Shown: positions 3,014 through 24,229 of the stretch, piece by piece | Position numbering within the stretch: the stretch's first letter is position 1 | Layout: every line of letters begins with the position of its first letter | Virus record (IMG/VR): IMGVR_UViG_647533159_000006 | DNA from: a virus | Lineage: Duplodnaviria; Heunggongvirae; Uroviricota; Caudoviricetes | DNA length: 32,030 nt | Reading direction: 5' to 3' (one strand) | The notes under the pieces: generated by a model | Told to the model about the DNA's origin: nothing | Database searches by the model: none | The model's input: only the letters and a program-made list of their open reading frames with translations | Position numbers and translations under genes: made by a program

Positions 3014-3237
3014 TGCCGGACAACGTAGATTTTATTCAGGAACAACAGGCTGAATTACTGGAGCGCCAGATTAACGCGGCAAGGGTAAAACATTGTGGTG
3101 CTTCTGCGCTGGTTTGCGAAGAGTGTGACGCGCCAATACCTGCTGCCCGTCGTGCGGCTTATCCGTCAGCCACGCGTTGTGTTTCCTGTCAGTCAGTCTT
3201 TGAAGCAAAAAACAAACATTACCGGAGAACGGCATGA
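3013..3237 (+). CDS. TraR/DksA-family C4 zinc-finger protein (P2 orf82 position)
   Basis: 74 aa with CxxC...CxxC (CEECDAPIPAARRAAYPSATRCVSCQ), typical of TraR/DksA-type zinc fingers. Confidence 0.6.
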   Translation: MPDNVDFIQEQQAELLERQINAARVKHCGASALVCEECDAPIPAARRAAYPSATRCVSCQSVFEAKNKHYRRTA

Positions 3238-3509
3238 GTATTCGTATTGAAATTGGCGAACGTTATGTCGTTACCAGTGACAGCTTTCAGTTTATTCTCC
3301 ACGAGAAAAAGAGAGCTGAAAGCGGTAAAAATGCCGGTCAGGAATGGCTGGCGGTAGTTGGTTATTACCCGAAATTAAGCCAGCTCGTTTCCGGCCTGAT
3401 GCATCACGATATTCTGACCGGAAGCGCAAAATCTTTTGCTGATTTAAACGCGCAGGTTGAGCAACTCAGCAAGCGTTGTTCAGAGGCTTTTGGCTCACAT
3501 GGCCGTTAA
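3234..3509 (+). CDS. Hypothetical early protein (P2 orf83 position)
   Basis: 91-aa ORF coupled to orf82 and overlapping the start of A. Confidence 0.5.
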   Translation: MSIRIEIGERYVVTSDSFQFILHEKKRAESGKNAGQEWLAVVGYYPKLSQLVSGLMHHDILTGSAKSFADLNAQVEQLSKRCSEAFGSHGR

Positions 3510-5784
3510 AGCCTCCGGGCATTTTGTCCCTCCGTCAGCATTTGCCGCAGGCACCGGTAAGACGTTTACCGGTGCTTATGCATGGAACGCGCCACGCGAG
3601 GCCGTCGGGCGCGAAAGACCTCTTACACGTGACGAGATGCGTCAGGTGCAAGGTGTTTTATCCACGATTAACCGCCTGCCTTACTTTTTGCGCTCGCTGT
3701 TTACTTCACGCTATGACTACATCCGGCGCAATAAAAGCCCGGTGCACGGGTTTTATTTCCTCACATCCACTTTTCAGCGTCGTTTATGGCCGCGCATTGA
3801 GCGTGTGAATCAGCGCCATGAAATGAACACCGACGCGTCGTTGCTGTTTCTGGCAGAGCGTGAGCACTATGCGCGCCTGCCGGGAATGAATGACAAGGAG
3901 CTGAAAAAGTTTGCCGCCCGTATCTCATCGCAGCTTTTCATAATGTATGAGGAACTCTGCGATGCCTGGGTGGATGCGCATGGCGAGAAAGAATCGCTGT
4001 TTACGGATGAGGCGCAGGCTCACCTGTATGGTCATGTTGCTGGCGCTGCACGTGCTTTCAATATTTCCCCGCTCTACTGGAAAAAATACCGTAAAGGGCA
4101 GATGACCACGAGGCAGGCATATTCTGCCATTGCCCGTCTGTTTAACGATGAGTGGTGGACTCATCAGCTTAAAGGCCAGCGTATGCGCTGGCATGAGGCG
4201 TTACTGATTGCTGTCGGGGAGGTCAATAAAGACCGTTCTCCTTATGCCAGTAAACATGCCATTCGTGATGTGCGTGCGCGCCGCCAGGCAAATCTGGAAT
4301 TTCTTAAATCGTGTGACCTTGAAAACAAGGAAACCGGCGAGCGCATCGACCTTATCAGTAAGGTGATGGGCAGTATTTCTAATCCAGAAATTCGCCGGAT
4401 GGAGCTGATGAACACCATCGCCGGTATTGAGCGTTACGCTGCCGCAGAGGGTGATGTGGGGATGTTTATCACGCTGACCGCGCCGTCAAAGTATCACCCG
4501 ACACGTCAGGTCAGAAAAGGCGAAAGTAAAACCGTCCAGCTAAATCACGGCTGGAATGATGAGGCATTTAATCCAAAGGATGCGCAGCGTTATCTCTGCC
4601 GTATCTGGAGCCTGATGCGCACGGCATTCAAGGATAATGATTTACAGGCCTACGGTTTGCGTGTTGTTGAACCACACCACGACGGAACGCCGCACTGGCA
4701 TATGATGCTTTTTTGTAATCCACGCCAGCGTAACCAGATTATTGAAATCATGCGTCGCTACGCGCTCAAAGAGGATGGAGACGAAAGAGGAGCCGCGCGA
4801 AACCGTTTTCAGGCAAAACATCTTAACCGGGGCGGTGCTGCGGGGTATATCGCGAAATACATCTCAAAAAATATCGACGGCTATGCACTGGATGGTCAGC
4901 TCGATAATGATACCGGCAGACCGCTGAAAGATACTGCCGCGGCTGTTACCGCATGGGCGTCAACGTGGCGCATCCCGCAATTTAAAACGGTTGGTCTGCC
5001 GACAATGGGGGCTTACCGTGAACTACGCAAATTGCCTCGCGGCGTCAGCATTGCTGATGAGTTTGACGAGCGCGTCGAGGCTGCACGCGCCGCTGCAGAC
5101 AGTGGTGATTTTGCGTTGTATATCAGCGCGCAGGGCGGGGCAAATGTCCCGCGCGATTGTCAGACTGTCAGGGTCGCCCGTAGCCCGTCGGATGAAGTTA
5201 ACGAGTACGAGGAAGAAGTCGAGAGAGTGGTCGGCATTTACGCGCCGCATCTCGGCGCGCGTCATATTCATATCACCAGAACCACGGACTGGCGCATTGT
5301 GCCGAAAGTGCCGGTCGTTGAGCCTTTGACTTTAAAAAGCGGCATCGCCGCGCCTCGGAGTCCTGTCAATAACTGTGGAAAGCTCACCGGTGGTGATACT
5401 TCGTTACCGGCTCCCACGCCTTCTGAGCACGCCGCAGCAGTGCTTAATCTGGTTGATGACGGTGTTATCGAATGGAATGACCCGGAGGTCGTGAGGGCGC
5501 TCAGGGGCGCATTAAAACACGGCCTGAGAAGACCAAATCGTCAGCAAAGAAACGGAAGCCCGTTAAAACCGCATGAAATTGCACCATCGGCCAGACTGAC
5601 CCGGTCTGAACGATTGCAAATCACCCGTATCCGCGTTGACCTTGCTCAGAACGGTATCAGGCCGCAGCGATGGGAGCTTGAGGCGCTGGCGCGTGGCGTG
5701 ACCGTAAATTATGACGGGAAAAAATTCACGTATCCGGTCGCTGATGAGTGGCCGGGGTTCTCAAAAGTAATGGAGTGGACATAA
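3499..5784 (+). CDS. A: Replication initiation protein A (rolling-circle HUH endonuclease)
   Basis: ATG at 3499 (MAVKASGHFVPP...) gives 761 aa; contains the HUH motif (PHWHMMLF) and a tyrosine pair (GYIAKYISK) typical of rolling-circle initiators; the track ORF starts upstream at 3457 in frame. Confidence 0.9.
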   Translation: MAVKASGHFVPPSAFAAGTGKTFTGAYAWNAPREAVGRERPLTRDEMRQVQGVLSTINRLPYFLRSLFTSRYDYIRRNKSPVHGFYFLTSTFQRRLWPRIERVNQRHEMNTDASLLFLAEREHYARLPGMNDKELKKFAARISSQLFIMYEELCDAWVDAHGEKESLFTDEAQAHLYGHVAGAARAFNISPLYWKKYRKGQMTTRQAYSAIARLFNDEWWTHQLKGQRMRWHEALLIAVGEVNKDRSPYASKHAIRDVRARRQANLEFLKSCDLENKETGERIDLISKVMGSISNPEIRRMELMNTIAGIERYAAAEGDVGMFITLTAPSKYHPTRQVRKGESKTVQLNHGWNDEAFNPKDAQRYLCRIWSLMRTAFKDNDLQAYGLRVVEPHHDGTPHWHMMLFCNPRQRNQIIEIMRRYALKEDGDERGAARNRFQAKHLNRGGAAGYIAKYISKNIDGYALDGQLDNDTGRPLKDTAAAVTAWASTWRIPQFKTVGLPTMGAYRELRKLPRGVSIADEFDERVEAARAAADSGDFALYISAQGGANVPRDCQTVRVARSPSDEVNEYEEEVERVVGIYAPHLGARHIHITRTTDWRIVPKVPVVEPLTLKSGIAAPRSPVNNCGKLTGGDTSLPAPTPSEHAAAVLNLVDDGVIEWNDPEVVRALRGALKHGLRRPNRQQRNGSPLKPHEIAPSARLTRSERLQITRIRVDLAQNGIRPQRWELEALARGVTVNYDGKKFTYPVADEWPGFSKVMEWT

Positions 5785-6233
5785 TGGCAAAAATTCACGA
5801 GGTAAAGCTGCACGCAAAATATTTTGACCTTGTACTGGAAGGAAAGAAACGAGCAGAGTTTCGTAAAAATGACCGTAATTATGAGTGCGGGGACACGTTG
5901 ATTTTGCATGAATGGGTGCAGGGGGTGTATACGGGGCGAAAGGTTGAAACCCGGATAACGGATGTTACTGACCTGTCAGACTGGATGGAAGGTTATGTCT
6001 TGCTAAGTATTGAGCTGCTTAATACAGGCGCATATGAGATTGTGAACTGGAAAGAACTTAGTGAGCGTGGTCTGGTATTCAGAATTAATCATGACATTAT
6101 GCATCAGCTCGGCCTTGCTGTTATGTATGAACCAGAGACGGGGATGTCTGGCGGGGCAATGGTTGCCACGGATGGAGCATGGAACTATTCAGATGAACAG
6201 ATGGAGCATGCAAAGCAAAATGGGTGGTTTTGA
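5785..6233 (+). CDS. ASCH/DUF3850-like (PUA-fold) domain protein
   Basis: ATG at 5785 immediately after the A stop (MAKIHEVKLHAKYFDLVLEGKKRAEFRKNDRNYECGDTLILHEW...), a pattern I recognise as DUF3850/ASCH-like; this is a motif-level call. Confidence 0.45.
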
Positions 6234-6235
6234 AA

Positions 6236-6472
6236 ATGCACAGAATACCGGGTGAGATACCGCTGCATAACACTAAAAATATCAAGCTGATGGCCATTGT
6301 TCACCGTCTACAACAGATTATGGTCAATGAGAATCTGACGCCCGATGAGCTAGTCGGGTGCGCTGAAATTGTCAGGGATAATTACGGACGGTTCAACGAT
6401 ATCAGTCGACCGAAAGTTAAGACATATCAACCATATAATATGCTTAAACAACCACCACGCAGGCTTGAGTAA
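6236..6472 (+). CDS. Hypothetical small protein
   Basis: 78-aa ORF from the ATG at 6236 (track ORF 6224..6472); no recognisable motif. Confidence 0.35.
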   Translation: MHRIPGEIPLHNTKNIKLMAIVHRLQQIMVNENLTPDELVGCAEIVRDNYGRFNDISRPKVKTYQPYNMLKQPPRRLE

Positions 6473-6613
6473 ACGCCGCTAGTGCTGAAACTTGCTTTCT
6501 GGGCTAGCGGCGTTGAACAACGAGCGTAGTGAGGCGTTAGTTATGTAAAGTTAAAGTAATTTAAAACAGTATATTAGTGGAAAGGATGTTGAGAGTATTC
6601 GGTTACGAGAGGG

Positions 6614-6651
6614 AATGGATGTATTTACAGAAAATGGATGTATTTACAGAA
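6614..6651. repeat. Perfect 19-bp tandem direct repeat (aatggatgtatttacagaa x2)
   Basis: Read directly: 6614..6632 and 6633..6651 are identical; lies in the AT-rich intergenic region about 140 bp upstream of the methyltransferase start. Confidence 0.8.
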
Positions 6652-6793
6652 ATTGTTGGATTAATTGTAGTAAAGCTAGGATAGGATAAGGCCTTAGGGC
6701 TGGATGTGGGGAGCCTTCTTGTAGTTTGCTAAAACGCTCGAGATTTTTGAAGGATACAGTTATACTCTGCCGGAGGATGAATCGGAGACTAAA

Positions 6794-7831
6794 ATGGCGG
6801 TAAAAGTTGTTGATCTTTTTTGTGGTGCTGGCGGGCTTACTCATGGCTTAAAGCAAGCCGGATTAGATGTAGTCGCTGGTATTGATATAGAGAGTGCATG
6901 CCGGGTTGCTTATGAAAGTAATAACAGTGCGCTTTTTATTGAAAAAGATATTTCTCTGGTGACCAAAGACGAGCTTAACGATCTTTTTGAAGGTGCGCAG
7001 GTCAGGGTGTTGGCTGGTTGTGCGCCGTGCCAACCTTTTTCAAGGTATACGCAAGGGCGCGATAAGAAAAATGATAAAAAGTGGCCTCTTCTTTATGAAT
7101 TTGAACGTTTAATTCGAGGGGTTAATCCAGAGATCGTTACAATGGAAAATGTGCCTGATGTAACGAAGCATTCTGTTTATAGTGACTTCTATAATAGTTT
7201 AGAGGCATTGGGTTATCATGTCTGGGCCGGAAAGGTTGAATGTGTAGATTATGGTGTTCCGCAAAATAGAGTAAGGCATGTATTATTGGCATCTAAATTT
7301 GCGCCGCTTTCATTTGTAAAACCAAAAGTAGAAAAGGCGGTGACGGTAAAAGAATGCATTGGCGGACTTCCTCCATTAAAGGCAGGTCAAACGGATCCTG
7401 TTGATCCTTTACATAAAGCAAGTAAATTAAGTGATATAAATCTAAAACGTATTGCTTGCTCTAAACCAGGAGGGACATGGCGAGACTGGCCAGTAGAGTT
7501 GATTGCATCATGCCACATAAAGAAAAGTGGGCAAGGTTATGCTAGTGTATACGGACGTATGGATTGGGATAAACCAAGTCCTACAATTACTACGCTATGT
7601 TATGGTTTTGGAAATGGCAGATTTGGTCATCCAGAGCAAAATCGTGCAATTTCTCTGAGAGAGGCTGCATTGTTGCAAACGTTTCCAAAGGATTACGTTT
7701 TTACTGCACCCAATGAGAAAGTATCTATAAAGAATGTTGGTAGGATGATTGGTAATGCAGTACCGGTAAAACTAGGTGAGGTTATAGGTGAGTCAATTAT
7801 AACTCACCTAAAAGAGCACAATATAGTTTAA
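6794..7831 (+). CDS. DNA (cytosine-5)-methyltransferase
   Basis: 345 aa with canonical C5-MTase motifs: I DLFCGAGG, IV PCQPFS, VI ENV, VIII QNRVR, X GNAVP; GGAG Shine-Dalgarno 7 nt upstream of the ATG. Confidence 0.9.
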   Translation: MAVKVVDLFCGAGGLTHGLKQAGLDVVAGIDIESACRVAYESNNSALFIEKDISLVTKDELNDLFEGAQVRVLAGCAPCQPFSRYTQGRDKKNDKKWPLLYEFERLIRGVNPEIVTMENVPDVTKHSVYSDFYNSLEALGYHVWAGKVECVDYGVPQNRVRHVLLASKFAPLSFVKPKVEKAVTVKECIGGLPPLKAGQTDPVDPLHKASKLSDINLKRIACSKPGGTWRDWPVELIASCHIKKSGQGYASVYGRMDWDKPSPTITTLCYGFGNGRFGHPEQNRAISLREAALLQTFPKDYVFTAPNEKVSIKNVGRMIGNAVPVKLGEVIGESIITHLKEHNIV

Positions 7832-8559
7832 GCATGTAGTCTTGATGATCGTATGTATAAGCGATCATCAAGGTATTTTTGTATGTTTTCTAGTATTTCT
7901 TCTAGGTAATGGAAAACTTCATTTTTAAGAAGTTCAAGGTTGTCAATAGACGTTTCTTGACCCTTGTTTAAAAAGGATTCTGAACCATGTGCCAATGCAT
8001 TTCTTGCTTTTTTTATGTTTACTAAATTTCCACCATTATGAGTTTTTGAACGATCTGTTTGATAGGAAAAACCATAGATATTAGCAACATCCCTAATTTT
8101 CTGTGCGTCAACATTTCCCGAAAATAGGGGGTTTTTATCTGCTTGAACTTGTTTTTTGTGTTCCTCTAGCCATTTTTTTAGAACTAGTTTTGCTATATCA
8201 CCTTGTGAAAAATCCATGTCACTCACCATATGATGGTCTAATTTTTTTAAGGCAAGCTTTGTTAAACTTTCGCAAATCTTATCGACACAAAGATCATCGC
8301 ACGAATTAAGTTCATTATGTATGTCTTCAATAGCATTAGATATAGTGGCTTCAATTAAGTTATATAATATAATAAACGCATTGGCTTTAAGGATATGCGT
8401 CATTTCGATATCGATTTCGCGGTGTTTACATTCGCCTGCTGTGCGATCTTTGTACGAGAAAGTTGGTCTCTCATCAATAATGAATTTAACAAAATTAAAA
8501 TATTTTTCTATATCTTCTTTTCTTTCAGAAAATAAAATTTTGCTGTTCATAATGACCAC
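7828..8559 (-). CDS. HEPN-like protein with Rx4H motif (putative RNase/effector), second gene of the DUF262 operon
   Basis: 243-aa ORF (GTG start 8559 with GGAG upstream; alternative ATG at 8550); C-terminal KKARNALAHG matches the HEPN Rx4-6H signature; 6 bp downstream of the DUF262 gene on the same strand; 3' end overlaps the MTase 3' end by 4 bp. Confidence 0.55.
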   Translation of the reverse strand: MVIMNSKILFSERKEDIEKYFNFVKFIIDERPTFSYKDRTAGECKHREIDIEMTHILKANAFIILYNLIEATISNAIEDIHNELNSCDDLCVDKICESLTKLALKKLDHHMVSDMDFSQGDIAKLVLKKWLEEHKKQVQADKNPLFSGNVDAQKIRDVANIYGFSYQTDRSKTHNGGNLVNIKKARNALAHGSESFLNKGQETSIDNLELLKNEVFHYLEEILENIQKYLDDRLYIRSSRLHA

Positions 8560-8565
8560 GGATAG

Positions 8566-9690
8566 TTACTCCTCACTATCATCTAGAACAGTATCTTCGG
8601 TCTGCACACCTAAAAGTTTGTCTCTTACATATTCAATACGTGCTTTTACTTTAGGTTTTGAGTTTGACGCATCAGATCTTGTATGTTTAATAAACTCTTC
8701 TGAGTTTAACCATTCCTCTACCGGTGTTGGTATTATGTTAGAGTTAGTTTTTAAGGCTAAAGTGGAACCGACAGCTAACGCTTCAAAGCGAATTCTTGGT
8801 ACAGTGTTTGCTGTTGCATTCTTTCTGAAACCATAGGGGAAATGTGTTTTGACAAATTCACACATATCTTGAAATTGTGCAGTTAGTTTTTCTTCTTGCT
8901 CAGGACTAAATGACTCATTTCGTTGGTCAAGATATTGGGTTAAGAAAGTATCAACACTTTTTTCAAAGTTAAGATAGTTATCACAATAGGCAAAATATCT
9001 AAGAACCAATTCTGGATATTCTCCACGACTGATTCTGGCATCGTTTAGAGGGCATATTTCCCTAAACAATGGAAACTCTGATAGTCTATTAACAACATCA
9101 AGAAAAGGCCCATCATTACTGCCCTGTCGTTGCTCCATTGTCGTGAGTTTTATTCCACCTGTATTCAATCGATCGAAAATCTCCCTTCTTGCTTCTTCAT
9201 CACATAATTCAGTGAGTTCAATCATTCGAATAGTTTTTCTATCGAATCTAAGCTTACGTGCAGGTGTGAAGTCAGAGTATTTGAATCCGTTGGCTGAAGT
9301 TAACTTTTTTAATCCAGTAAGGGTAAATTTATCATTTAGAAAATGATAAAGTGTTCTAATCCTCTGGCTACCATCAACGATTTCCAATCGCCCATCGTCA
9401 TTTCCGATATCGGCAACAAATACATATGGGATAGGAATATTTAGCAAAAGCGATTCAATGAATCTTGATTTTTGAACATTGCTCCAAACAAATTCCCTTT
9501 GATAATCAGGTATGTATAGTTCTGCTTGGTCGGTTTCTAATCCTTTCTGAAATTTGTCAACAATGACACTTACAGGAAACTCTCTAATTTGGTGATCCGT
9601 TATTTTTTGCATGGATTTGATCTGGTTATCCAGGTCAACTTTATCTTCTTCTGTGATCACTTGTTCAGGTTGTCTTGGGACTCTTGCCAT
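8566..9690 (-). CDS. DUF262 (ParB/Srx-like NTPase-fold) domain protein
   Basis: ATG at 9690 preceded by AAGGAG (track ORF extends to a GTG at 9765); DUF262 motifs IPDYQREFVW, IVDGSQRIRTL and FDRLNTGGIKLT; about 170 C-terminal residues without a recognisable HNH/DUF1524 motif. Confidence 0.75.
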   Translation of the reverse strand: MARVPRQPEQVITEEDKVDLDNQIKSMQKITDHQIREFPVSVIVDKFQKGLETDQAELYIPDYQREFVWSNVQKSRFIESLLLNIPIPYVFVADIGNDDGRLEIVDGSQRIRTLYHFLNDKFTLTGLKKLTSANGFKYSDFTPARKLRFDRKTIRMIELTELCDEEARREIFDRLNTGGIKLTTMEQRQGSNDGPFLDVVNRLSEFPLFREICPLNDARISRGEYPELVLRYFAYCDNYLNFEKSVDTFLTQYLDQRNESFSPEQEEKLTAQFQDMCEFVKTHFPYGFRKNATANTVPRIRFEALAVGSTLALKTNSNIIPTPVEEWLNSEEFIKHTRSDASNSKPKVKARIEYVRDKLLGVQTEDTVLDDSEE

Positions 9691-9833
9691 TTGTTTTCTC
9701 CTTATGCTTATTTGCAATAAGTTGCATTTGTTTGCATGCGTAGTTTTATACTGATTTAATCCCACAAGTCCTTTACATGCAAGGGTTAGAGGCTTAAATG
9801 CACCTGCATTAAAACCGCCTTATGAAGCGGGCA

Positions 9834-10021: not shown

Positions 10022-11056
10022 TCAGCCGTTGTCAGTGTCCAGTGAGTAGTTTTTAAAGCGGATGACCTCCTGACCGAGCCAGCCGTTTATCTCGCGGATC
10101 CTGTCCTGTAACGGGATAAGCTCATTGCGGACAAAGACCTTTGCCACTTTCTCAATATCTCCCAGTGACCCGACGTTCTCCGGCTTGCCGCCCATCAACT
10201 GAAAGGGGATGCGGTGTGCGTCCAGCAGGTCAGCGGCGCTGGCTTTTTTGATATTAAAAAAATCGTCCTTCGTTGCCACTTCACTGAGCGGGATAATTTT
10301 AATGCCGTCAGCTTTCCCCTGCGGGGCATAGAGAAACAGGTTTTTAAAGTTGTTGCGGCCTTTCGACTTCACCATGTTTTCGCGAAGCATTTCGATATCG
10401 TTGCGATCCTGCACGGCATCGGTGACGTACATGATGTATCCGGCATGTGCGCCGTTTTCGTAATACTTGCGGCGGAACAGCGTGGCCGACTCATTCAGCC
10501 AGGCAGAGTTAAGGGCGCTGAGATATTCCGGCAGGCCGTACAACTCCTGATTAATATCCGGCTCCAGCAGGTGAAACACGGAGCCGGGCGCGAAGGCTGT
10601 CGGCTCGTTGAAGGACGGCACCCACCAGTAAACATCCTCTTCCACACCACGGCGGGTATATTTTGCCGGTGAGGTTTCCAGTCTGATGACCTTACCGGTG
10701 GTGCTGTAACGCTTTTCCAGAAACGCATTACCGAACACCAGAAAATCCAGCACAAAGCGGCTGAAATCCTGCTGAGAAAGCCACGGATGCGGAATAAACG
10801 TTGAAGCCAGAATATTGCGTTTAACGTAAATCGGCGAGCTGTGATGCACGGCAGCACGCAGGCTTTTTGCCAGACCGGTAAAGCTGACCGGTGGCTCATA
10901 CCATCTGCCGTTACTGATGCACTCGACGTAATCCAGAATGTCACGGCGGTCGAGAACCGGCACCGGCTCGCCAAAGGTGAATGCCTCCATTTTCGGTGCA
11001 CTGGCGGTCATTGTTTTTGCCGCAGGTTGCGGTGTTTTCCCTTTTTTCTTGCTCAT
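10022..11056 (-). CDS. Q: Portal protein
   Basis: 344 aa (P2 gpQ length), minus strand, upstream neighbour of the large terminase, adjacent to cos. Confidence 0.85.
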   Translation of the reverse strand: MSKKKGKTPQPAAKTMTASAPKMEAFTFGEPVPVLDRRDILDYVECISNGRWYEPPVSFTGLAKSLRAAVHHSSPIYVKRNILASTFIPHPWLSQQDFSRFVLDFLVFGNAFLEKRYSTTGKVIRLETSPAKYTRRGVEEDVYWWVPSFNEPTAFAPGSVFHLLEPDINQELYGLPEYLSALNSAWLNESATLFRRKYYENGAHAGYIMYVTDAVQDRNDIEMLRENMVKSKGRNNFKNLFLYAPQGKADGIKIIPLSEVATKDDFFNIKKASAADLLDAHRIPFQLMGGKPENVGSLGDIEKVAKVFVRNELIPLQDRIREINGWLGQEVIRFKNYSLDTDNG

Positions 11057-12828
11057 CAGTAAAACTCCAGAATGGTGGATGTCAGCGGGGTGCTGATACT
11101 GGCGGTGAGTGGCTCATTTAACAGGGCGTGCATGGTCGCCCAGGCGAGGTCGGCGTGGCTGGCTTCCTCGCTGCGGCTGGCCTCATAGGTGGCACTGCGT
11201 CCGCTGCTGGTCATGGTCTTGCGGATAGCCATAAACGAGCTGGTGATGTCGGTGGCGCTGACGTCATATTCCAGACAGCCACGGCGGATGACGTCTTTTG
11301 CCTTGAGCACCATTGCGGTTTTCATTTCCGGCGTGTAGCGGATGTCGCGCGCGGCGGGATAGAACGAGCGCACGAGCTGGAACACGCCGACACCGAGGCC
11401 GGTGGCATCAATACCGATGTATTCGACGTTGTATTTTTCGGTGAGTTCGCGGATGGATTCAGCCTGGGTGGCAAAGTCCATGCCTTTCCACTGGTGACGC
11501 TCAAGTATTCTGAATTTGCCACCGGCCACCACCGGCGGTGCCAGTACCACGCATCCGGCACTGTCGCCACGGTGTGACGGGTCGTAACCAATCCATACCG
11601 GGCGGGAGCCGAACGGATTGGCGGCAAAGGGTGCATAGTCTTCCCATTCTTCCAGCGTGTCGACCATGCAGCGTTGCAGCTCCTCGAACGGGAACACCGA
11701 CGCCTTGTCGTCAACAAATTCACACATGAACAGGTTTTTAAAATCGTCGGCGCTGTTTTCGCGTTTGAGCTGCTCAATGTCGAACAACGTGCAGCCGCCT
11801 TTCAGCGCGTCCTCAATGGTGACAATCTGCCGCCACTGGCCGTCCGCACAGAGAAGCCCACCGGCAAGGGCGTTATGACTGACGTCGATTTCCACGCGAT
11901 CGGCGGCGCTGGCGCGTCCCCGGTTAAACAGTTCACCCGACCAGAACGGGTAGGCGTCGTGCGCCAGCGTGGACGGGGTGGAGAAATAGGTCGAGCGCAG
12001 GTGACTCTGTGAGGCCATACCTGATGCCACCTTACGCAGTACCTGAAAATTCGGGATCCAGAAAATCTCGTCGACGTACAGGTCACCGTTATGGCTCTGT
12101 GCGGTGTTGGAGTTGGTGCCGAGAAAAATCAGTTTTGCGCCGTTATTGCCCAGGACAATCGGGTCACCGGTCAGGTCAACGTCAACCAGACGGGCAAAGG
12201 CGATGATGTATTCGCGGAACACATACGCCTGCGTTTTACTGGCCGACAGAAAAATCTGGTTATGACCGGTTTTCAGGGCGCGCAGCAGCGCCTCGCGGGA
12301 AAAATAAAACGTCGCGCCAATCTGGCGGGATTTCAGGATATCGCGGATGCGGTGCTCAAGCCCGGCGCGATACCAGTGCAACTGATATTCGAAAGACTGC
12401 TCAAAGAAAATCTGCTCCAGCTTTTCGATGGCCTCGTCACTGAAAAAATTTTTTTTCGGTTTGCGACGCCCGCCTTTGTTGCGGTTAGCGATGTTCGGAT
12501 TAAGGTCTGCCTCGTTGCCGGTCTGGCTGTAGCGGTTTACCCGTGCCAGTCGTTCAATCTGGCGTCCGAGCAGGTCAATTTCCTTGAAGTCACCGCCGGT
12601 TTTCTGCGGTTTGATGATGAGCTGGGTCAGCCGCGCTTCCAGACTCATTTCGACACGGCTGATGGGGGCAATGCTGTCCCAGCCGTCGCGCTGTTTCCAG
12701 CTCTGCACCGTCGGACGTTTCATCTGCAACATGGCGGCAATCTGCGGCACGGAAAACCCCTGCCAGTACAGCAGCGCCGCCTGACGACGCGGGTCGTGTA
12801 AAAGAGTGGTGTCTGTGGTGATGGTCAT
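11056..12828 (-). CDS. P: Terminase large subunit (ATPase)
   Basis: 590 aa from the ATG at 12828 (MTITTDTTLLHDP...); track ORF extends to 12858; divergent from the O-N-M capsid operon as in P2. Confidence 0.85.
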   Translation of the reverse strand: MTITTDTTLLHDPRRQAALLYWQGFSVPQIAAMLQMKRPTVQSWKQRDGWDSIAPISRVEMSLEARLTQLIIKPQKTGGDFKEIDLLGRQIERLARVNRYSQTGNEADLNPNIANRNKGGRRKPKKNFFSDEAIEKLEQIFFEQSFEYQLHWYRAGLEHRIRDILKSRQIGATFYFSREALLRALKTGHNQIFLSASKTQAYVFREYIIAFARLVDVDLTGDPIVLGNNGAKLIFLGTNSNTAQSHNGDLYVDEIFWIPNFQVLRKVASGMASQSHLRSTYFSTPSTLAHDAYPFWSGELFNRGRASAADRVEIDVSHNALAGGLLCADGQWRQIVTIEDALKGGCTLFDIEQLKRENSADDFKNLFMCEFVDDKASVFPFEELQRCMVDTLEEWEDYAPFAANPFGSRPVWIGYDPSHRGDSAGCVVLAPPVVAGGKFRILERHQWKGMDFATQAESIRELTEKYNVEYIGIDATGLGVGVFQLVRSFYPAARDIRYTPEMKTAMVLKAKDVIRRGCLEYDVSATDITSSFMAIRKTMTSSGRSATYEASRSEEASHADLAWATMHALLNEPLTASISTPLTSTILEFY

Positions 12829-13001
12829 GAATACCTCGCCGTGATGAATACACGGCAAGGCTACTGAGTCGCGCCCCGCGATTCGCTAAGGTGCTGTTGT
12901 GTCAGTGATAAGCCATCCGGGACTGATGGCGGAGGATGCGCATCGTCGGGAAACTGATGCCGACATGTGACTCCTCTAATCACTATTCAGGACTCCTGAC
13001 A

Positions 13002-22854: not shown

Positions 22855-23407
22855 NNNNNNNNNNNNNNNNNNNNNNNNNNNNNNNNNNNNNNNNNNNNNN
22901 NNNNNNNNNNNNNNNNNNNNNNNNNNNNNNNNNNNNNNNNNNNNNNNNNNNNNNNNNNNNNNNNNNNNNNNNNNNNNNNNNNNNNNNNNNNNNNNNNNNN
23001 NNNNNNNNNNNNNNNNNNNNNNNNNNNNNNNNNNNNNNNNNNNNNNNNNNNNNNNNNNNNNNNNNNNNNNNNNNNNNNNNNNNNNNNNNNNNNNNNNNNN
23101 NNNNNNNNNNNNNNNNNNNNNNNNNNNNNNNNNNNNNNNNNNNNNNNNNNNNNNNNNNNNNNNNNNNNNNNNNNNNNNNNNNNNNNNNNNNNNNNNNNNN
23201 NNNNNNNNNNNNNNNNNNNNNNNNNNNNNNNNNNNNNNNNNNNNNNNNNNNNNNNNNNNNNNNNNNNNNNNNNNNNNNNNNNNNNNNNNNNNNNNNNNNN
23301 NNNNNNNNNNNNNNNNNNNNNNNNNNNNNNNNNNNNNNNNNNNNNNNNNNNNNNNNNNNNNNNNNNNNNNNNNNNNNNNNNNNNNNNNNNNNNNNNNNNN
23401 NNNNNNN
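22855..23407. other. Assembly gap (553 N)
   Basis: Contiguous n characters; lies between the two hix-like sites. Confidence 1.
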
Positions 23408-23579: not shown

Positions 23580-23635
23580 ATGCAGAGATTATGGCTAACT
23601 GGCATCATCTCCGGTTTTTATTCAGGGGGATGCTC

Positions 23636-24229
23636 ATGCTTATTGGCTATGTACGCGTGTCAACAAATGACCAGAACACGGAATTGCAGCGTAACGCGCT
23701 GGAGTGCGCGGGATGTGAGCGGATTTTTGAGGACAAAATCAGCGGCACGAAGTCCGACAGGCCGGGACTGAAAAAACTGCTCAGAACATTATCAGCAGGT
23801 GACACTCTGGTAGTCTGGAAGCTGGACCGGCTGGGGCGTAGTATGCGGCATCTGGTCATTCTGGTTGAGGAGCTGCGCGAACGCGGCGTTAATTTTCGCA
23901 GCCTGACAGATGCTATTGATACCAGCACGCCGATGGGGCGTTTTTTCTTTCATGTGATGGGTGCCCTGGCTGAAATGGAGCGAGAACTCATTGTCGAGCG
24001 GACACGCGCCGGACTGGAAGCGGCCAGAGCCAAAGGGCGTATTGGTGGCAGACGTCCGAAGCTCACCGCGAGTGAGTGGGAACAGGCAGGACGGTTGCTG
24101 GCTGCGGGTGAATCACGTCAACGCGTGGCGCTGATTTTTGATATTGGCCTGTCCACGCTCTATAAAAAATTCCCCTCATCAGCGGCAAAGAATAAATTGT
24201 GTCATCCCTTAGCCAACCGGGACAAATAG
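23636..24229 (+). CDS. Serine DNA invertase (Hin/Gin/Cin/Pin family)
   Basis: ATG at 23636 (MLIGYVRVSTNDQNTELQRNAL...): resolvase/invertase N-terminal catalytic serine motif plus a C-terminal HTH; track ORF starts at 23591. Confidence 0.9.
   Translation: MLIGYVRVSTNDQNTELQRNALECAGCERIFEDKISGTKSDRPGLKKLLRTLSAGDTLVVWKLDRLGRSMRHLVILVEELRERGVNFRSLTDAIDTSTPMGRFFFHVMGALAEMERELIVERTRAGLEAARAKGRIGGRRPKLTASEWEQAGRLLAAGESRQRVALIFDIGLSTLYKKFPSSAAKNKLCHPLANRDK

What the first reader, a model, noticed from the sequence alone, without database searches (positions are those of the whole stretch)
6794..7831. Solitary C5-cytosine methyltransferase converging on, and overlapping by 4 bp, the DUF262/HEPN operon
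This is a complete Dcm-type MTase (motifs I, IV, VI, VIII, X present) with no adjacent Vsr or recognisable restriction endonuclease. Its stop codon (7829..7831) overlaps the stop of the convergent HEPN-like gene (7828..7830). Three readings are possible: an orphan MTase protecting phage DNA from host restriction; the modification arm of an unconventional R-M-like system whose restriction arm is the DUF262/HEPN pair; or a module functionally linked to a modification-sensing DUF262 enzyme. The overlapping convergent 3' ends also imply transcriptional interference between the two units.
Basis: partly seen in the sequence, partly recalled or inferred. Interest (0 to 1): 0.65.

Follow-up and report, generated by a model that had tools for sequence, protein, structure and literature searches.

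The report
Methylase partnered with DUF262–HEPN defence pair
The cytosine methyltransferase is real and intact but not solitary: it is one gene of a widespread, already catalogued but never tested three-gene cassette (methylase, ParB-like DUF262 NTPase, HEPN RNase) that P2-like prophages carry in their defence hotspot and that most likely works like a restriction-modification system.

Summary
ORF 6794-7831 (+) is a complete C5-cytosine methyltransferase with all catalytic motifs. Its stop overlaps the stop of the convergent HEPN gene by 4 bp (TTAA, 7828-7831). No Vsr or classical restriction enzyme lies nearby.

The "solitary" label does not hold. The window is a P2-like E. coli prophage, and the cassette sits in the known defence hotspot between replication gene A and portal gene Q. 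I surveyed 128 related loci, 80 genomic and 48 viral. An orthologous methylase lies directly next to the DUF262-HEPN pair in 42 genomic and 45 viral loci, in two gene orders. The methylase and DUF262 protein distances correlate (Mantel r = 0.81). Three methylase homologues (63-71% identity) all lead back to the same pair. Related methylases pair instead with BbrUII/HgiDII-family restriction enzymes at the same hotspot position.

The methylase is therefore most likely the modification arm of a restriction-modification-like system. DUF262 would be the sensor and HEPN the RNase effector.

The trio was noted by Anantharaman et al. (2013). This exact cassette is listed in Rousset et al. (2022), Table S5A. 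PD-λ-5 is a validated analogue. I found no experimental test of the trio, and the target motif and trigger are unknown. Verdict: new member of a known, uncharacterised kind; moderate interest.

The parts
6794..7831 (+). C5-cytosine DNA methyltransferase, 345 aa; catalytic Cys79 codon at 7028-7030
   Evidence: Pfam PF00145 at 1.3e-54; PADLOC DrmMII 6e-94 and MTase_II 5e-90; all motifs present. 100% identical over the gene to WP_000279422 of E. coli 1002W03.
7828..8550 (-). HEPN protein of the MAE_28990 family, 240 aa from the ATG at 8550 (the ORF extends to a GTG at 8559). R183-N-A-L-A-H188 (Rx4H) is encoded at 7987-8004.
8566..9690 (-). DUF262 (ParB-like NTPase) protein with an all-helical C-terminal domain, 374 aa from the ATG at 9690 (the ORF extends to a GTG at 9765). 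D106-G-S-Q-R110 is encoded at 9361-9375.
   Evidence: Pfam GmrSD_N at 1e-28. PADLOC NsnA at 2e-55 over the full length and PD-T4-2_A at 2e-34. The QRxxxW, DGxQR and FxxxN motifs are conserved in 73 relatives. AlphaFold2 model pLDDT 80; best Foldseek hit BrxU (probability 0.98), followed by ParB domains; no strands after residue 160.
7828..7831 (.). TTAA shared by the two convergent stop codons
   Evidence: Read from the sequence. The same 4-bp overlap occurs in 10 of 57 convergent relatives and in Moraxella phage Mcat30.
7839..7874 (+). Terminator-like hairpin (14-bp stem, then ATTTTTGTAT), 8 nt after the methylase stop and inside the 3' coding end of the HEPN gene
   Evidence: Consensus scan. 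Function not shown. The common P2 variant L132 has a GC hairpin in its 29-bp intergenic gap instead.
6738..6766 (+). Promoter-like site (TCGAGA-17-TATACT), 28 nt upstream of the methylase ATG
   Evidence: Consensus scan, 9 of 12 matches. Such sites are not enriched over shuffles, so this is weak evidence.
6727..9797 (.). Extent of the three-gene cassette
   Evidence: Homology to the ~75% variant L001 starts at 6727. Prophage backbone homology resumes at 9797-9805 in seven loci compared, four of them carrying a different cargo. GC content is 0.33-0.41 here against about 0.55 in the backbone.
6408..6726 (.). Stretch unique to this cassette variant, with a hairpin at 6472-6514 and a perfect 2 x 19-nt tandem repeat at 6614-6651
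   Evidence: Role unknown.

Best explanation
The methylase is the self-marking arm of a three-gene, restriction-modification-like defence cassette that the prophage carries as cargo.

Shown:
- All three proteins are intact, with their catalytic or nucleotide-binding motifs.
- The three genes travel together across phyla and across phage types.
- The methylase family exchanges this pair for bona fide restriction enzymes.

Inferred:
- The methylase puts 5-methylcytosine on a fixed motif in host and prophage DNA.
- The DUF262 protein (a ParB-like NTPase with a helical DNA-binding domain and no nuclease of its own) reads the modification state of DNA.
- Incoming DNA that lacks the mark makes DUF262 license the HEPN RNase, which cuts RNA. 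This stops phage gene expression or arrests the infected cell.
- Tight convergent packing, or methylase-first operon order, helps the methylase act before the effector.
For: 1. Location: the P2 defence hotspot between gene A and gene Q.

2. Linkage: an orthologous methylase (E 1e-109 to 1e-198) is adjacent in 42 of 80 genomic loci, 19 convergent and 23 co-directional. It is also adjacent in 45 of 48 IMG/VR viral loci; two of the other three are cut by contig ends. Outside one cyanobacterial clade, only 3 intact pairs lack the methylase.

3. In all 28 co-directional loci measured, the methylase comes first and its ORF overlaps the DUF262 ORF.

4. Co-variation: methylase versus DUF262 distances give Mantel r = 0.81, with 0 of 2000 permutations reaching it.

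5. Reciprocal test: methylase homologues at 71%, 66% and 63% identity all sit next to HEPN_MAE_28990 plus GmrSD_N, in P2-like prophages, a Proteus island and an Acinetobacter prophage. The trio also occurs in lambdoid prophages and in Moraxella phages.

6. Partner swap: methylases nested inside the trio methylase tree pair with NF050001 BbrUII/HgiDII-family restriction enzymes (751 and 785 bits, cut-off 550) at the same hotspot position.

7. Division of labour: the DUF262 protein lacks DUF1524/HNH, and the HEPN protein has an invariant Rx4H motif and a HEPN fold.

8. Literature:
- PD-λ-5, a ParB/HEPN protein plus a methyltransferase, gives broad phage defence and is described as a compacted RM+Abi system (PMC9519451).
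- The Menshen study (PMC12065111) raises the idea that DUF262 domains next to lone methylases may target unmodified DNA.
Against: - No experiment exists for this trio, so the trigger, the target motif and the RNA target are all inferred.
- Known DUF262 sensors (GmrSD, BrxU, SspE, probably Dazbog) respond to modified DNA, not unmodified DNA.
- The pair persists without any adjacent DNA methylase in a clade of 27 cyanobacterial loci flanked by housekeeping genes.
- The related two-gene system PD-T4-2 defends without a methylase.
- Phage P24B2 has a frameshifted methylase (G7 to G8) next to an intact pair, although this may be a sequencing error.
- The decay asymmetry is 6 loci with the methylase intact and a partner gene broken, against 1 the other way. 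It points the right way but is not significant given gene sizes.
- Co-variation of adjacent genes is also expected from simple co-transfer.
Confidence: 0.55

Rival explanations
1. Two independent functions that are merely co-located. The methylase is an orphan that protects phage and host DNA from other restriction systems. The DUF262-HEPN pair is a self-sufficient, type-IV-like or PD-T4-2-like defence that senses modified phage DNA or another infection cue.
For: PD-T4-2 (DUF262 + HEPN) defends against T4 without a methylase. A cyanobacterial clade keeps the pair alone. Characterised DUF262 domains sense modified DNA. Rousset 2022 labels a Vibrio DUF262 + HEPN_MAE_28990 locus 'Type-IV restriction'.
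Against: Adjacency is kept through two different gene orders and across at least six phyla, with overlapping ORFs in the operon form. Protein distances co-vary. All three methylase homologues examined at 63-71% identity sit beside the pair. At the same position the pair is replaced by true restriction enzymes. The window's HEPN protein does not match the PD-T4-2_B model.
Confidence: 0.15
2. SspE-like logic. The 5-methylcytosine mark made by the methylase is a required cofactor. The DUF262 protein binds methylated self DNA, which tunes its NTPase activity and keeps the HEPN RNase poised. Infection then releases or activates it.
For: SspE is a DUF262 protein whose NTPase is stimulated by the host's own phosphorothioate mark. 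The model would explain strict linkage and co-variation without requiring DUF262 to read unmodified DNA.
Against: Nothing specific to this family supports it. It does not explain why the same methylase family pairs with classical restriction enzymes. It does not explain how the methylase-less clade works.
Confidence: 0.15
3. An addiction module. Like many restriction-modification systems, the trio mainly stabilises the cassette or prophage by killing cells that lose it. Phage defence would be secondary or absent.
For: The genes are packed convergently like mobile restriction-modification units. Among degenerate loci, six have an intact methylase with a broken partner gene, against one the other way. 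The cassette sits on mobile elements.
Against: The hotspot is enriched for proven defence systems. PD-λ-5 with the same parts list defends broadly. The decay asymmetry is not significant. This reading is also compatible with, not opposed to, the main explanation.
Confidence: 0.1

Closest known systems
MAE_28990 HEPN - ParB - DNA methylase gene neighbourhood (Anantharaman et al. [quoted passage not shown] 2022, PMC9122126, Table S5A)
   Same: Same three families and the same hotspot. Table S5A lists WP_000124986 and WP_000279422, the DUF262 and methylase accessions of E. coli 1002W03, whose cassette is 99.2% identical to the window.
   Different: Nothing differs in kind; the window holds a member. 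The literature gives only a table entry, with no experiment and no proposed mechanism. The trio is absent from Rousset's held table of tested systems.
PD-λ-5 (Vassallo et al. 2022, PMC9519451)
   Same: Prophage-borne, with ParB-like, HEPN and DNA methyltransferase parts. It is validated as a broad defence and described as a compacted RM+Abi system.
   Different: In PD-λ-5, ParB (ParBc type) and HEPN are fused in one protein of about 500 aa, and the methylase is Dam-like (MethyltransfD12, N6-adenine type). Here there are two separate proteins, DUF262-type ParB and MAE_28990-type HEPN, and a C5 methylase. No PD-Lambda-5 model appears among all 13 PADLOC hits of the DUF262 protein or the 25 hits shown (of 60) for the methylase.
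PD-T4-2 (Vassallo et al. 2022)
   Same: A DUF262 protein plus a HEPN protein, and the PD-T4-2_A model matches at 2e-34.
   Different: It has no methylase and is smaller (1.54 kb for both genes). The HEPN partner does not match the window's HEPN protein at E of 10 or below.
Menshen NsnA (Millman 2022; PMC12065111)
   Same: Best PADLOC match for the DUF262 protein (2e-55, full length). The architecture is the same: ParB-DUF262 plus a helical DNA-binding domain.
   Different: The cassette has no NsnB ABC ATPase and no NsnC effector. A HEPN protein and a methylase stand in their place.
GmrSD / BrxU / SspE type IV and related enzymes
   Same: An N-terminal DUF262 NTPase with conserved QR, DGxQR and FxxxN motifs. 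BrxU is the best structural match.
   Different: There is no DUF1524 His-Me nuclease. The effector is a separate HEPN protein, and a cognate methylase is attached.
BbrUII/HgiDII-family (GHKL/paraMORC) restriction enzyme plus C5 methylase systems in the same P2 hotspot
   Same: The methylase belongs to the same family (56-59% identity, nested in the trio methylase tree), occupies the same position, and is often convergent.
   Different: The restriction partner is a single protein of about 650 aa, not the DUF262 + HEPN pair.
PrrC-EcoprrI (anticodon nuclease embedded in a type I restriction-modification locus)
   Same: An RNase kept silent within a restriction-modification locus acts as the effector on infection. 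That PrrC has a HEPN-like fold is from my own knowledge.
   Different: PrrC guards a complete type I system and is triggered by its inhibition. Here no separate DNA-cleaving enzyme is present.

Membership tests
C5-cytosine DNA methyltransferase (Dcm-type, PF00145) | Motifs I (FxGxG), IV (PCQ), VI (ENV), VIII (QxRxR), IX and X, in the canonical order | tested here: met
Orphan (solitary) methyltransferase | No conserved cognate partner gene | tested here: not met
   The DUF262-HEPN pair is adjacent in 42 of 80 genomic loci and 45 of 48 viral loci, and next to all three methylase homologues examined.
Orphan (solitary) methyltransferase | No adjacent Vsr or classical restriction enzyme | tested here: met
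MAE_28990 HEPN-ParB-methylase neighbourhood | HEPN protein of the MAE_28990 family with a conserved Rx4-6H motif | tested here: met
MAE_28990 HEPN-ParB-methylase neighbourhood | Adjacent ParB-like gene and adjacent DNA methylase gene | tested here: met
P2 hotspot cargo (Rousset 2022, Vassallo 2022) | Located between replication gene A and portal gene Q of a P2-like prophage | tested here: met
GmrSD-family type IV restriction enzyme | N-terminal DUF262 NTPase domain with the DGxQR motif | tested here: met
GmrSD-family type IV restriction enzyme | C-terminal DUF1524 His-Me (HNH) nuclease domain | tested here: not met
   No Pfam match. The C-terminal half of the model is all helical.
GmrSD-family type IV restriction enzyme | Cleavage that depends on modified DNA | not testable with these tools
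   Needs biochemistry.
Menshen (NsnABC) | NsnA-like DUF262 protein | tested here: met
   PADLOC NsnA at 2e-55, profile positions 27-377 of 385.
Menshen (NsnABC) | NsnB ABC ATPase and NsnC effector downstream | tested here: not met
   Only the HEPN gene and the methylase gene lie in the cassette.
PD-T4-2 | PD-T4-2_A (DUF262) and PD-T4-2_B (HEPN) proteins | tested here: inconclusive
   The A model matches at 2e-34, more weakly than NsnA. The B model does not match at E of 10 or below.
PD-λ-5 | A fused ParB-HEPN protein plus a Dam-like methyltransferase | tested here: not met
   Here the proteins are separate and the methylase is the C5 type. No PD-Lambda-5 model is among the 13 DUF262 hits or the 25 methylase hits shown. 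The parts list is the same, so it may work alike.
Restriction-modification system in the functional sense | The methylase protects self DNA from the partner's activity | not testable with these tools
   Supported only indirectly.

The most novel reading that the evidence does not exclude
The trio is a restriction-modification system whose 'restriction' arm does not cut DNA. A ParB-like NTPase reads whether a specific motif carries the 5-methylcytosine mark made by the cognate methylase, and on unmarked DNA it switches on a HEPN RNase. Self versus non-self would be decided on DNA but executed on RNA. This sensor-effector pair would be an interchangeable alternative to GHKL/paraMORC restriction enzymes around one methylase family.
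Probability: 0.4. Interest if true: 0.7.

Novelty: new member of a known kind. Interest (0 to 1): 0.4.

Why it matters
The cassette is common. One methylase variant alone is indexed in 1115 blocks of the assembly collection. The trio sits in P2-like and lambdoid prophages of E. coli and Shigella, in Proteus and Acinetobacter, and in Moraxella phages.

It is not recognised by PADLOC as a system, and I found no paper that tests it. If it works as proposed, it would show two things. A DUF262 sensor can be set to read the absence of a mark rather than its presence. And a methylation-based self-mark can gate an RNase.

In practice, a 5mC methylase carried by a prophage changes the host methylome. 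It also affects how DNA from such lysogens is accepted by strains with McrA, McrBC or Mrr.

Tried and rejected
1. Predicting the methylation motif from the target-recognition region. Residues 166-285 are as conserved as the catalytic core among 41 linked methylases. They are equally similar (58%) in methylases that pair with BbrUII/HgiDII-family enzymes. Conservation therefore does not show a single specificity. Solved structures match only the catalytic parts.

2. GTCGAC, which I recall as the HgiDII/BbrUII site, is a lead only. It occurs 4 times in the window against 9.6 expected, which is unremarkable.

3. Rousset Table S5B prints one and the same methylase sequence, 72% identical to the window's, for the 'HATPase_c_3 | DNA_methylase' system and for EcoT38I. 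That sequence is almost certainly one cluster representative reused across rows, so I did not use it to infer the EcoT38I specificity.

4. Decay asymmetry as a test of addiction logic gave 6 against 1, too few to be significant.

5. The P24B2 methylase frameshift as evidence that the methylase is dispensable. It is a single extra G in a G7 run and may be a sequencing error.

7. PADLOC has no model for the HEPN protein even at E = 10.

8. Literature searches for an experimental study of the trio found none. The searches covered MAE_28990, DUF262 + HEPN + methyltransferase, PD-λ-5 follow-ups, DefensePredictor and paraMORC.

9. The low-GC stretch at 22.5-24 kb, which I first took for a second hotspot, is a run of 553 N.

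Full report
**Setting.** The window is a P2-like (Peduovirus) prophage of E. coli. Replication gene A is at 3457-5784 (+), portal gene Q at 10022-11056 (-) and the terminase gene at 11056-12858 (-). The finding lies between A and Q. Rousset et al. 2022 and Vassallo et al. 2022 describe this interval as a hotspot for defence cargo. GC content drops from about 0.55 to 0.33-0.41 across 6500-9800. Backbone homology to other P2-like genomes stops at about 6407 on the left and resumes at about 9797 on the right. The same 4.2-kb interval is 99.2% identical in E. coli 1002W03 and about 96% identical in three other complete genomes. A variant at roughly 75% nucleotide identity is present in three more genomes and in phage P24B2.

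**The observation.** ORF 6794-7831 (+) encodes a 345-aa C5-cytosine methyltransferase. It matches Pfam PF00145 at 1.3e-54 over nearly the whole profile and carries motifs I, IV (P78-C79-Q80), VI, VIII, IX and X. Its TAA stop at 7829-7831 and the stop of the convergent gene at 7828-7830 share TTAA. The convergent operon encodes two proteins.
- A MAE_28990-family HEPN protein at 7828-8550 (Pfam 8.6e-21).
- A DUF262/GmrSD_N protein at 8566-9690 (Pfam 1e-28).

No Vsr and no classical restriction enzyme are present. The description is therefore correct.

**Is the methylase solitary?** I collected homologues of the HEPN protein, aligned them and used the alignment to fetch loci. This gave 80 loci from a one-genome-per-species collection and 48 loci from IMG/VR viral contigs. 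I then searched six-frame translations of each locus with the three window proteins or profiles built from them.

- Of the genomic loci, 19 have the window's arrangement (DUF262, then HEPN, then a convergent methylase). Another 23 have methylase, DUF262, HEPN in one direction. The remaining 38 have no related methylase nearby.
- Of the viral loci, 45 of 48 have the methylase. Two of the other three are cut by a contig end.
- The methylases are close relatives of the window's (E 1e-109 to 1e-198), even where the HEPN proteins are only about 30% identical.

In a neighbour-joining tree of the DUF262 proteins, 27 of the 38 methylase-less loci form one cyanobacterial clade nested among methylase-linked clades. 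These loci are flanked by housekeeping genes such as aconitase B, methionine synthase and carbamoyl-phosphate synthase. A Pfam scan of 98 flanking ORFs found no recurrent DNA methylase family. Of the other eleven methylase-less loci, five are contig-end cases or fragments, three have broken genes and three are intact pairs without a methylase. Outside that one clade the methylase is thus almost always present.

**Further tests of linkage.**
- Pairwise distances of the methylase and DUF262 proteins correlate (Mantel r = 0.81; 0 of 2000 permutations reach it). DUF262 against HEPN gives r = 0.93.
- In all 28 co-directional loci measured, the methylase comes first and its ORF overlaps the DUF262 ORF.
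- Starting from the methylase instead, homologues at 71%, 66% and 63% identity all sit next to HEPN_MAE_28990 and GmrSD_N genes. The contexts are P2-like prophages of E. coli and Shigella, a Proteus island and an Acinetobacter prophage.
- The trio also occurs in lambdoid E. coli prophages, between antiterminator Q and the lysis genes, and in nine Moraxella phages.

**Partner exchange.** At 56-59% identity, methylases of the same family sit at the same P2 hotspot position. Their partner there is a single protein of about 650 aa that matches the NCBIfam equivalog 'BbrUII/HgiDII family restriction enzyme' (751 and 785 bits, cut-off 550). The same protein is annotated paraMORC3 in phage PhiR44_1. 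In a methylase tree these sequences nest inside the radiation of trio methylases. The DUF262-HEPN pair therefore occupies the slot that a restriction enzyme occupies next to a sister methylase. I regard this as the strongest indirect argument that the pair is the restriction arm. The trees are distance trees without support values, and many loci come from metagenome bins.

**The partner proteins.**

The DUF262 protein keeps the QRxxxW, DGxQR and FxxxN motifs across 73 relatives. It matches the Menshen NsnA profile over its full length (2e-55). An AlphaFold2 model (pLDDT 80) shows a ParB/sulfiredoxin-like N-terminal domain and an all-helical C-terminal domain. BrxU is the best Foldseek hit, followed by ParB CTPase domains. 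No beta-beta-alpha-metal nuclease is present, so this protein probably senses rather than cuts.

**Mechanism.** The best-supported reading is a restriction-modification-like system. The methylase marks self DNA, the DUF262 NTPase reads the mark, and the HEPN RNase is the effector. Only the anatomy and the linkage are shown. The direction of sensing, the motif and the RNA target are inferred.

Points against this reading:
- Characterised DUF262 sensors respond to modified DNA.
- The methylase-less clade and PD-T4-2 show that related pairs can stand alone.
- P24B2 has a frameshifted methylase beside an intact pair, though the change is one extra G in a G7 run.
- Among degenerate loci, six have an intact methylase with a broken partner gene, against one the other way. 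This is not significant.

**Convergent 3' ends.** Among 57 convergent relatives, 28 overlap (10 by exactly 4 bp) and 29 have gaps of up to 107 bp. In the window a terminator-like hairpin for the methylase transcript (7839-7874) lies inside the HEPN coding end. The common P2 variant has a GC hairpin in its 29-bp gap. Read-through and antisense effects are plausible but untested.

**What is known.**
- Anantharaman et al. [quoted passage not shown]
- Rousset et al. [quoted passage not shown] The trio is absent from their held table of tested systems.
- Vassallo et al. 2022 validated PD-λ-5, a fused ParB/HEPN protein plus a Dam-like methylase, as a broad defence. They called it a compacted RM+Abi system.
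- The same study validated PD-T4-2, DUF262 plus HEPN without a methylase.

I found no paper that tests the trio.

**Verdict.** The feature is real and the methylase is intact, but it is not solitary. The cassette is a member of a catalogued, widespread and experimentally untouched three-gene module. Interest is moderate. The cassette itself is ordinary for this hotspot, but the open question is a good and easily testable one: how a ParB-like NTPase, a 5mC mark and an RNase work together.

Noticed in passing
window 22855-23407: A run of 553 N lies inside the tail-fibre gene region. It produces the apparent GC content of 0.22. It is a gap or a masked stretch, not a second low-GC cargo island.
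   Followed up: yes
window 23591-24229 (+): A 212-aa ORF whose sequence looks like a Hin/Gin-type serine DNA invertase lies next to the interrupted tail-fibre ORFs. This suggests an invertible host-range segment. I ran no family search on it.
   Followed up: no
window 6614-6651 and 6472-6514: A perfect 2 x 19-nt tandem repeat (AATGGATGTATTTACAGAA) and a 19-nt hairpin lie in the 6408-6726 stretch, which is unique to this cassette variant and upstream of the methylase. The hairpin may be a terminator and the repeat an operator; neither role is known.
   Followed up: partly
whole window: GC-rich 6-bp palindromes are strongly avoided: GCCGGC 0 observed against 28.5 expected, GGCGCC 0 against 16.5, CGGCCG 0 against 13.1, CAGCTG 2 against 16.4, AGCGCT 1 against 11.6.
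   Followed up: no
L002 (phage P24B2), about 4740-4750; L001 about 3107-3113: The roughly 75% variant of the methylase has a G7 run. P24B2 has G8 there, which splits the gene. This is either a sequencing error or a real, possibly switchable, frameshift.
   Followed up: partly
L147 (E. coli AR_0014) 3369-6230: The same trio lies in a lambdoid prophage between antiterminator Q and the lysis genes, with a 32-bp convergent overlap. Many other E. coli genomes match the methylase query over the same 630-902 stretch at 70-71% identity; I did not inspect their context.
   Followed up: partly
L142, L146, L148 (P2 hotspot of other E. coli and of phage PhiR44_1): Sister methylases pair with a BbrUII/HgiDII-family GHKL (paraMORC3) restriction enzyme of about 650 aa, either convergent or co-directional.
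   Followed up: partly
L033, L034, L038, L042, L044-L046, L050 and others: In Nostoc and related cyanobacteria the DUF262-HEPN pair sits without a methylase just downstream of aconitase B. Uma2-family genes are often nearby. The pair looks like a vertically kept chromosomal fixture there.
   Followed up: partly
window 5748-6472: A DUF3850/ASCH + DUF7415 protein (161 aa) and an 82-aa ORF follow gene A. The stretch up to about 6407 is shared with other P2-like phages (Yersinia phage P37), and the first part with E. coli L146. Both ORFs are absent from the other trio variants, so they are not part of the cassette.
   Followed up: partly
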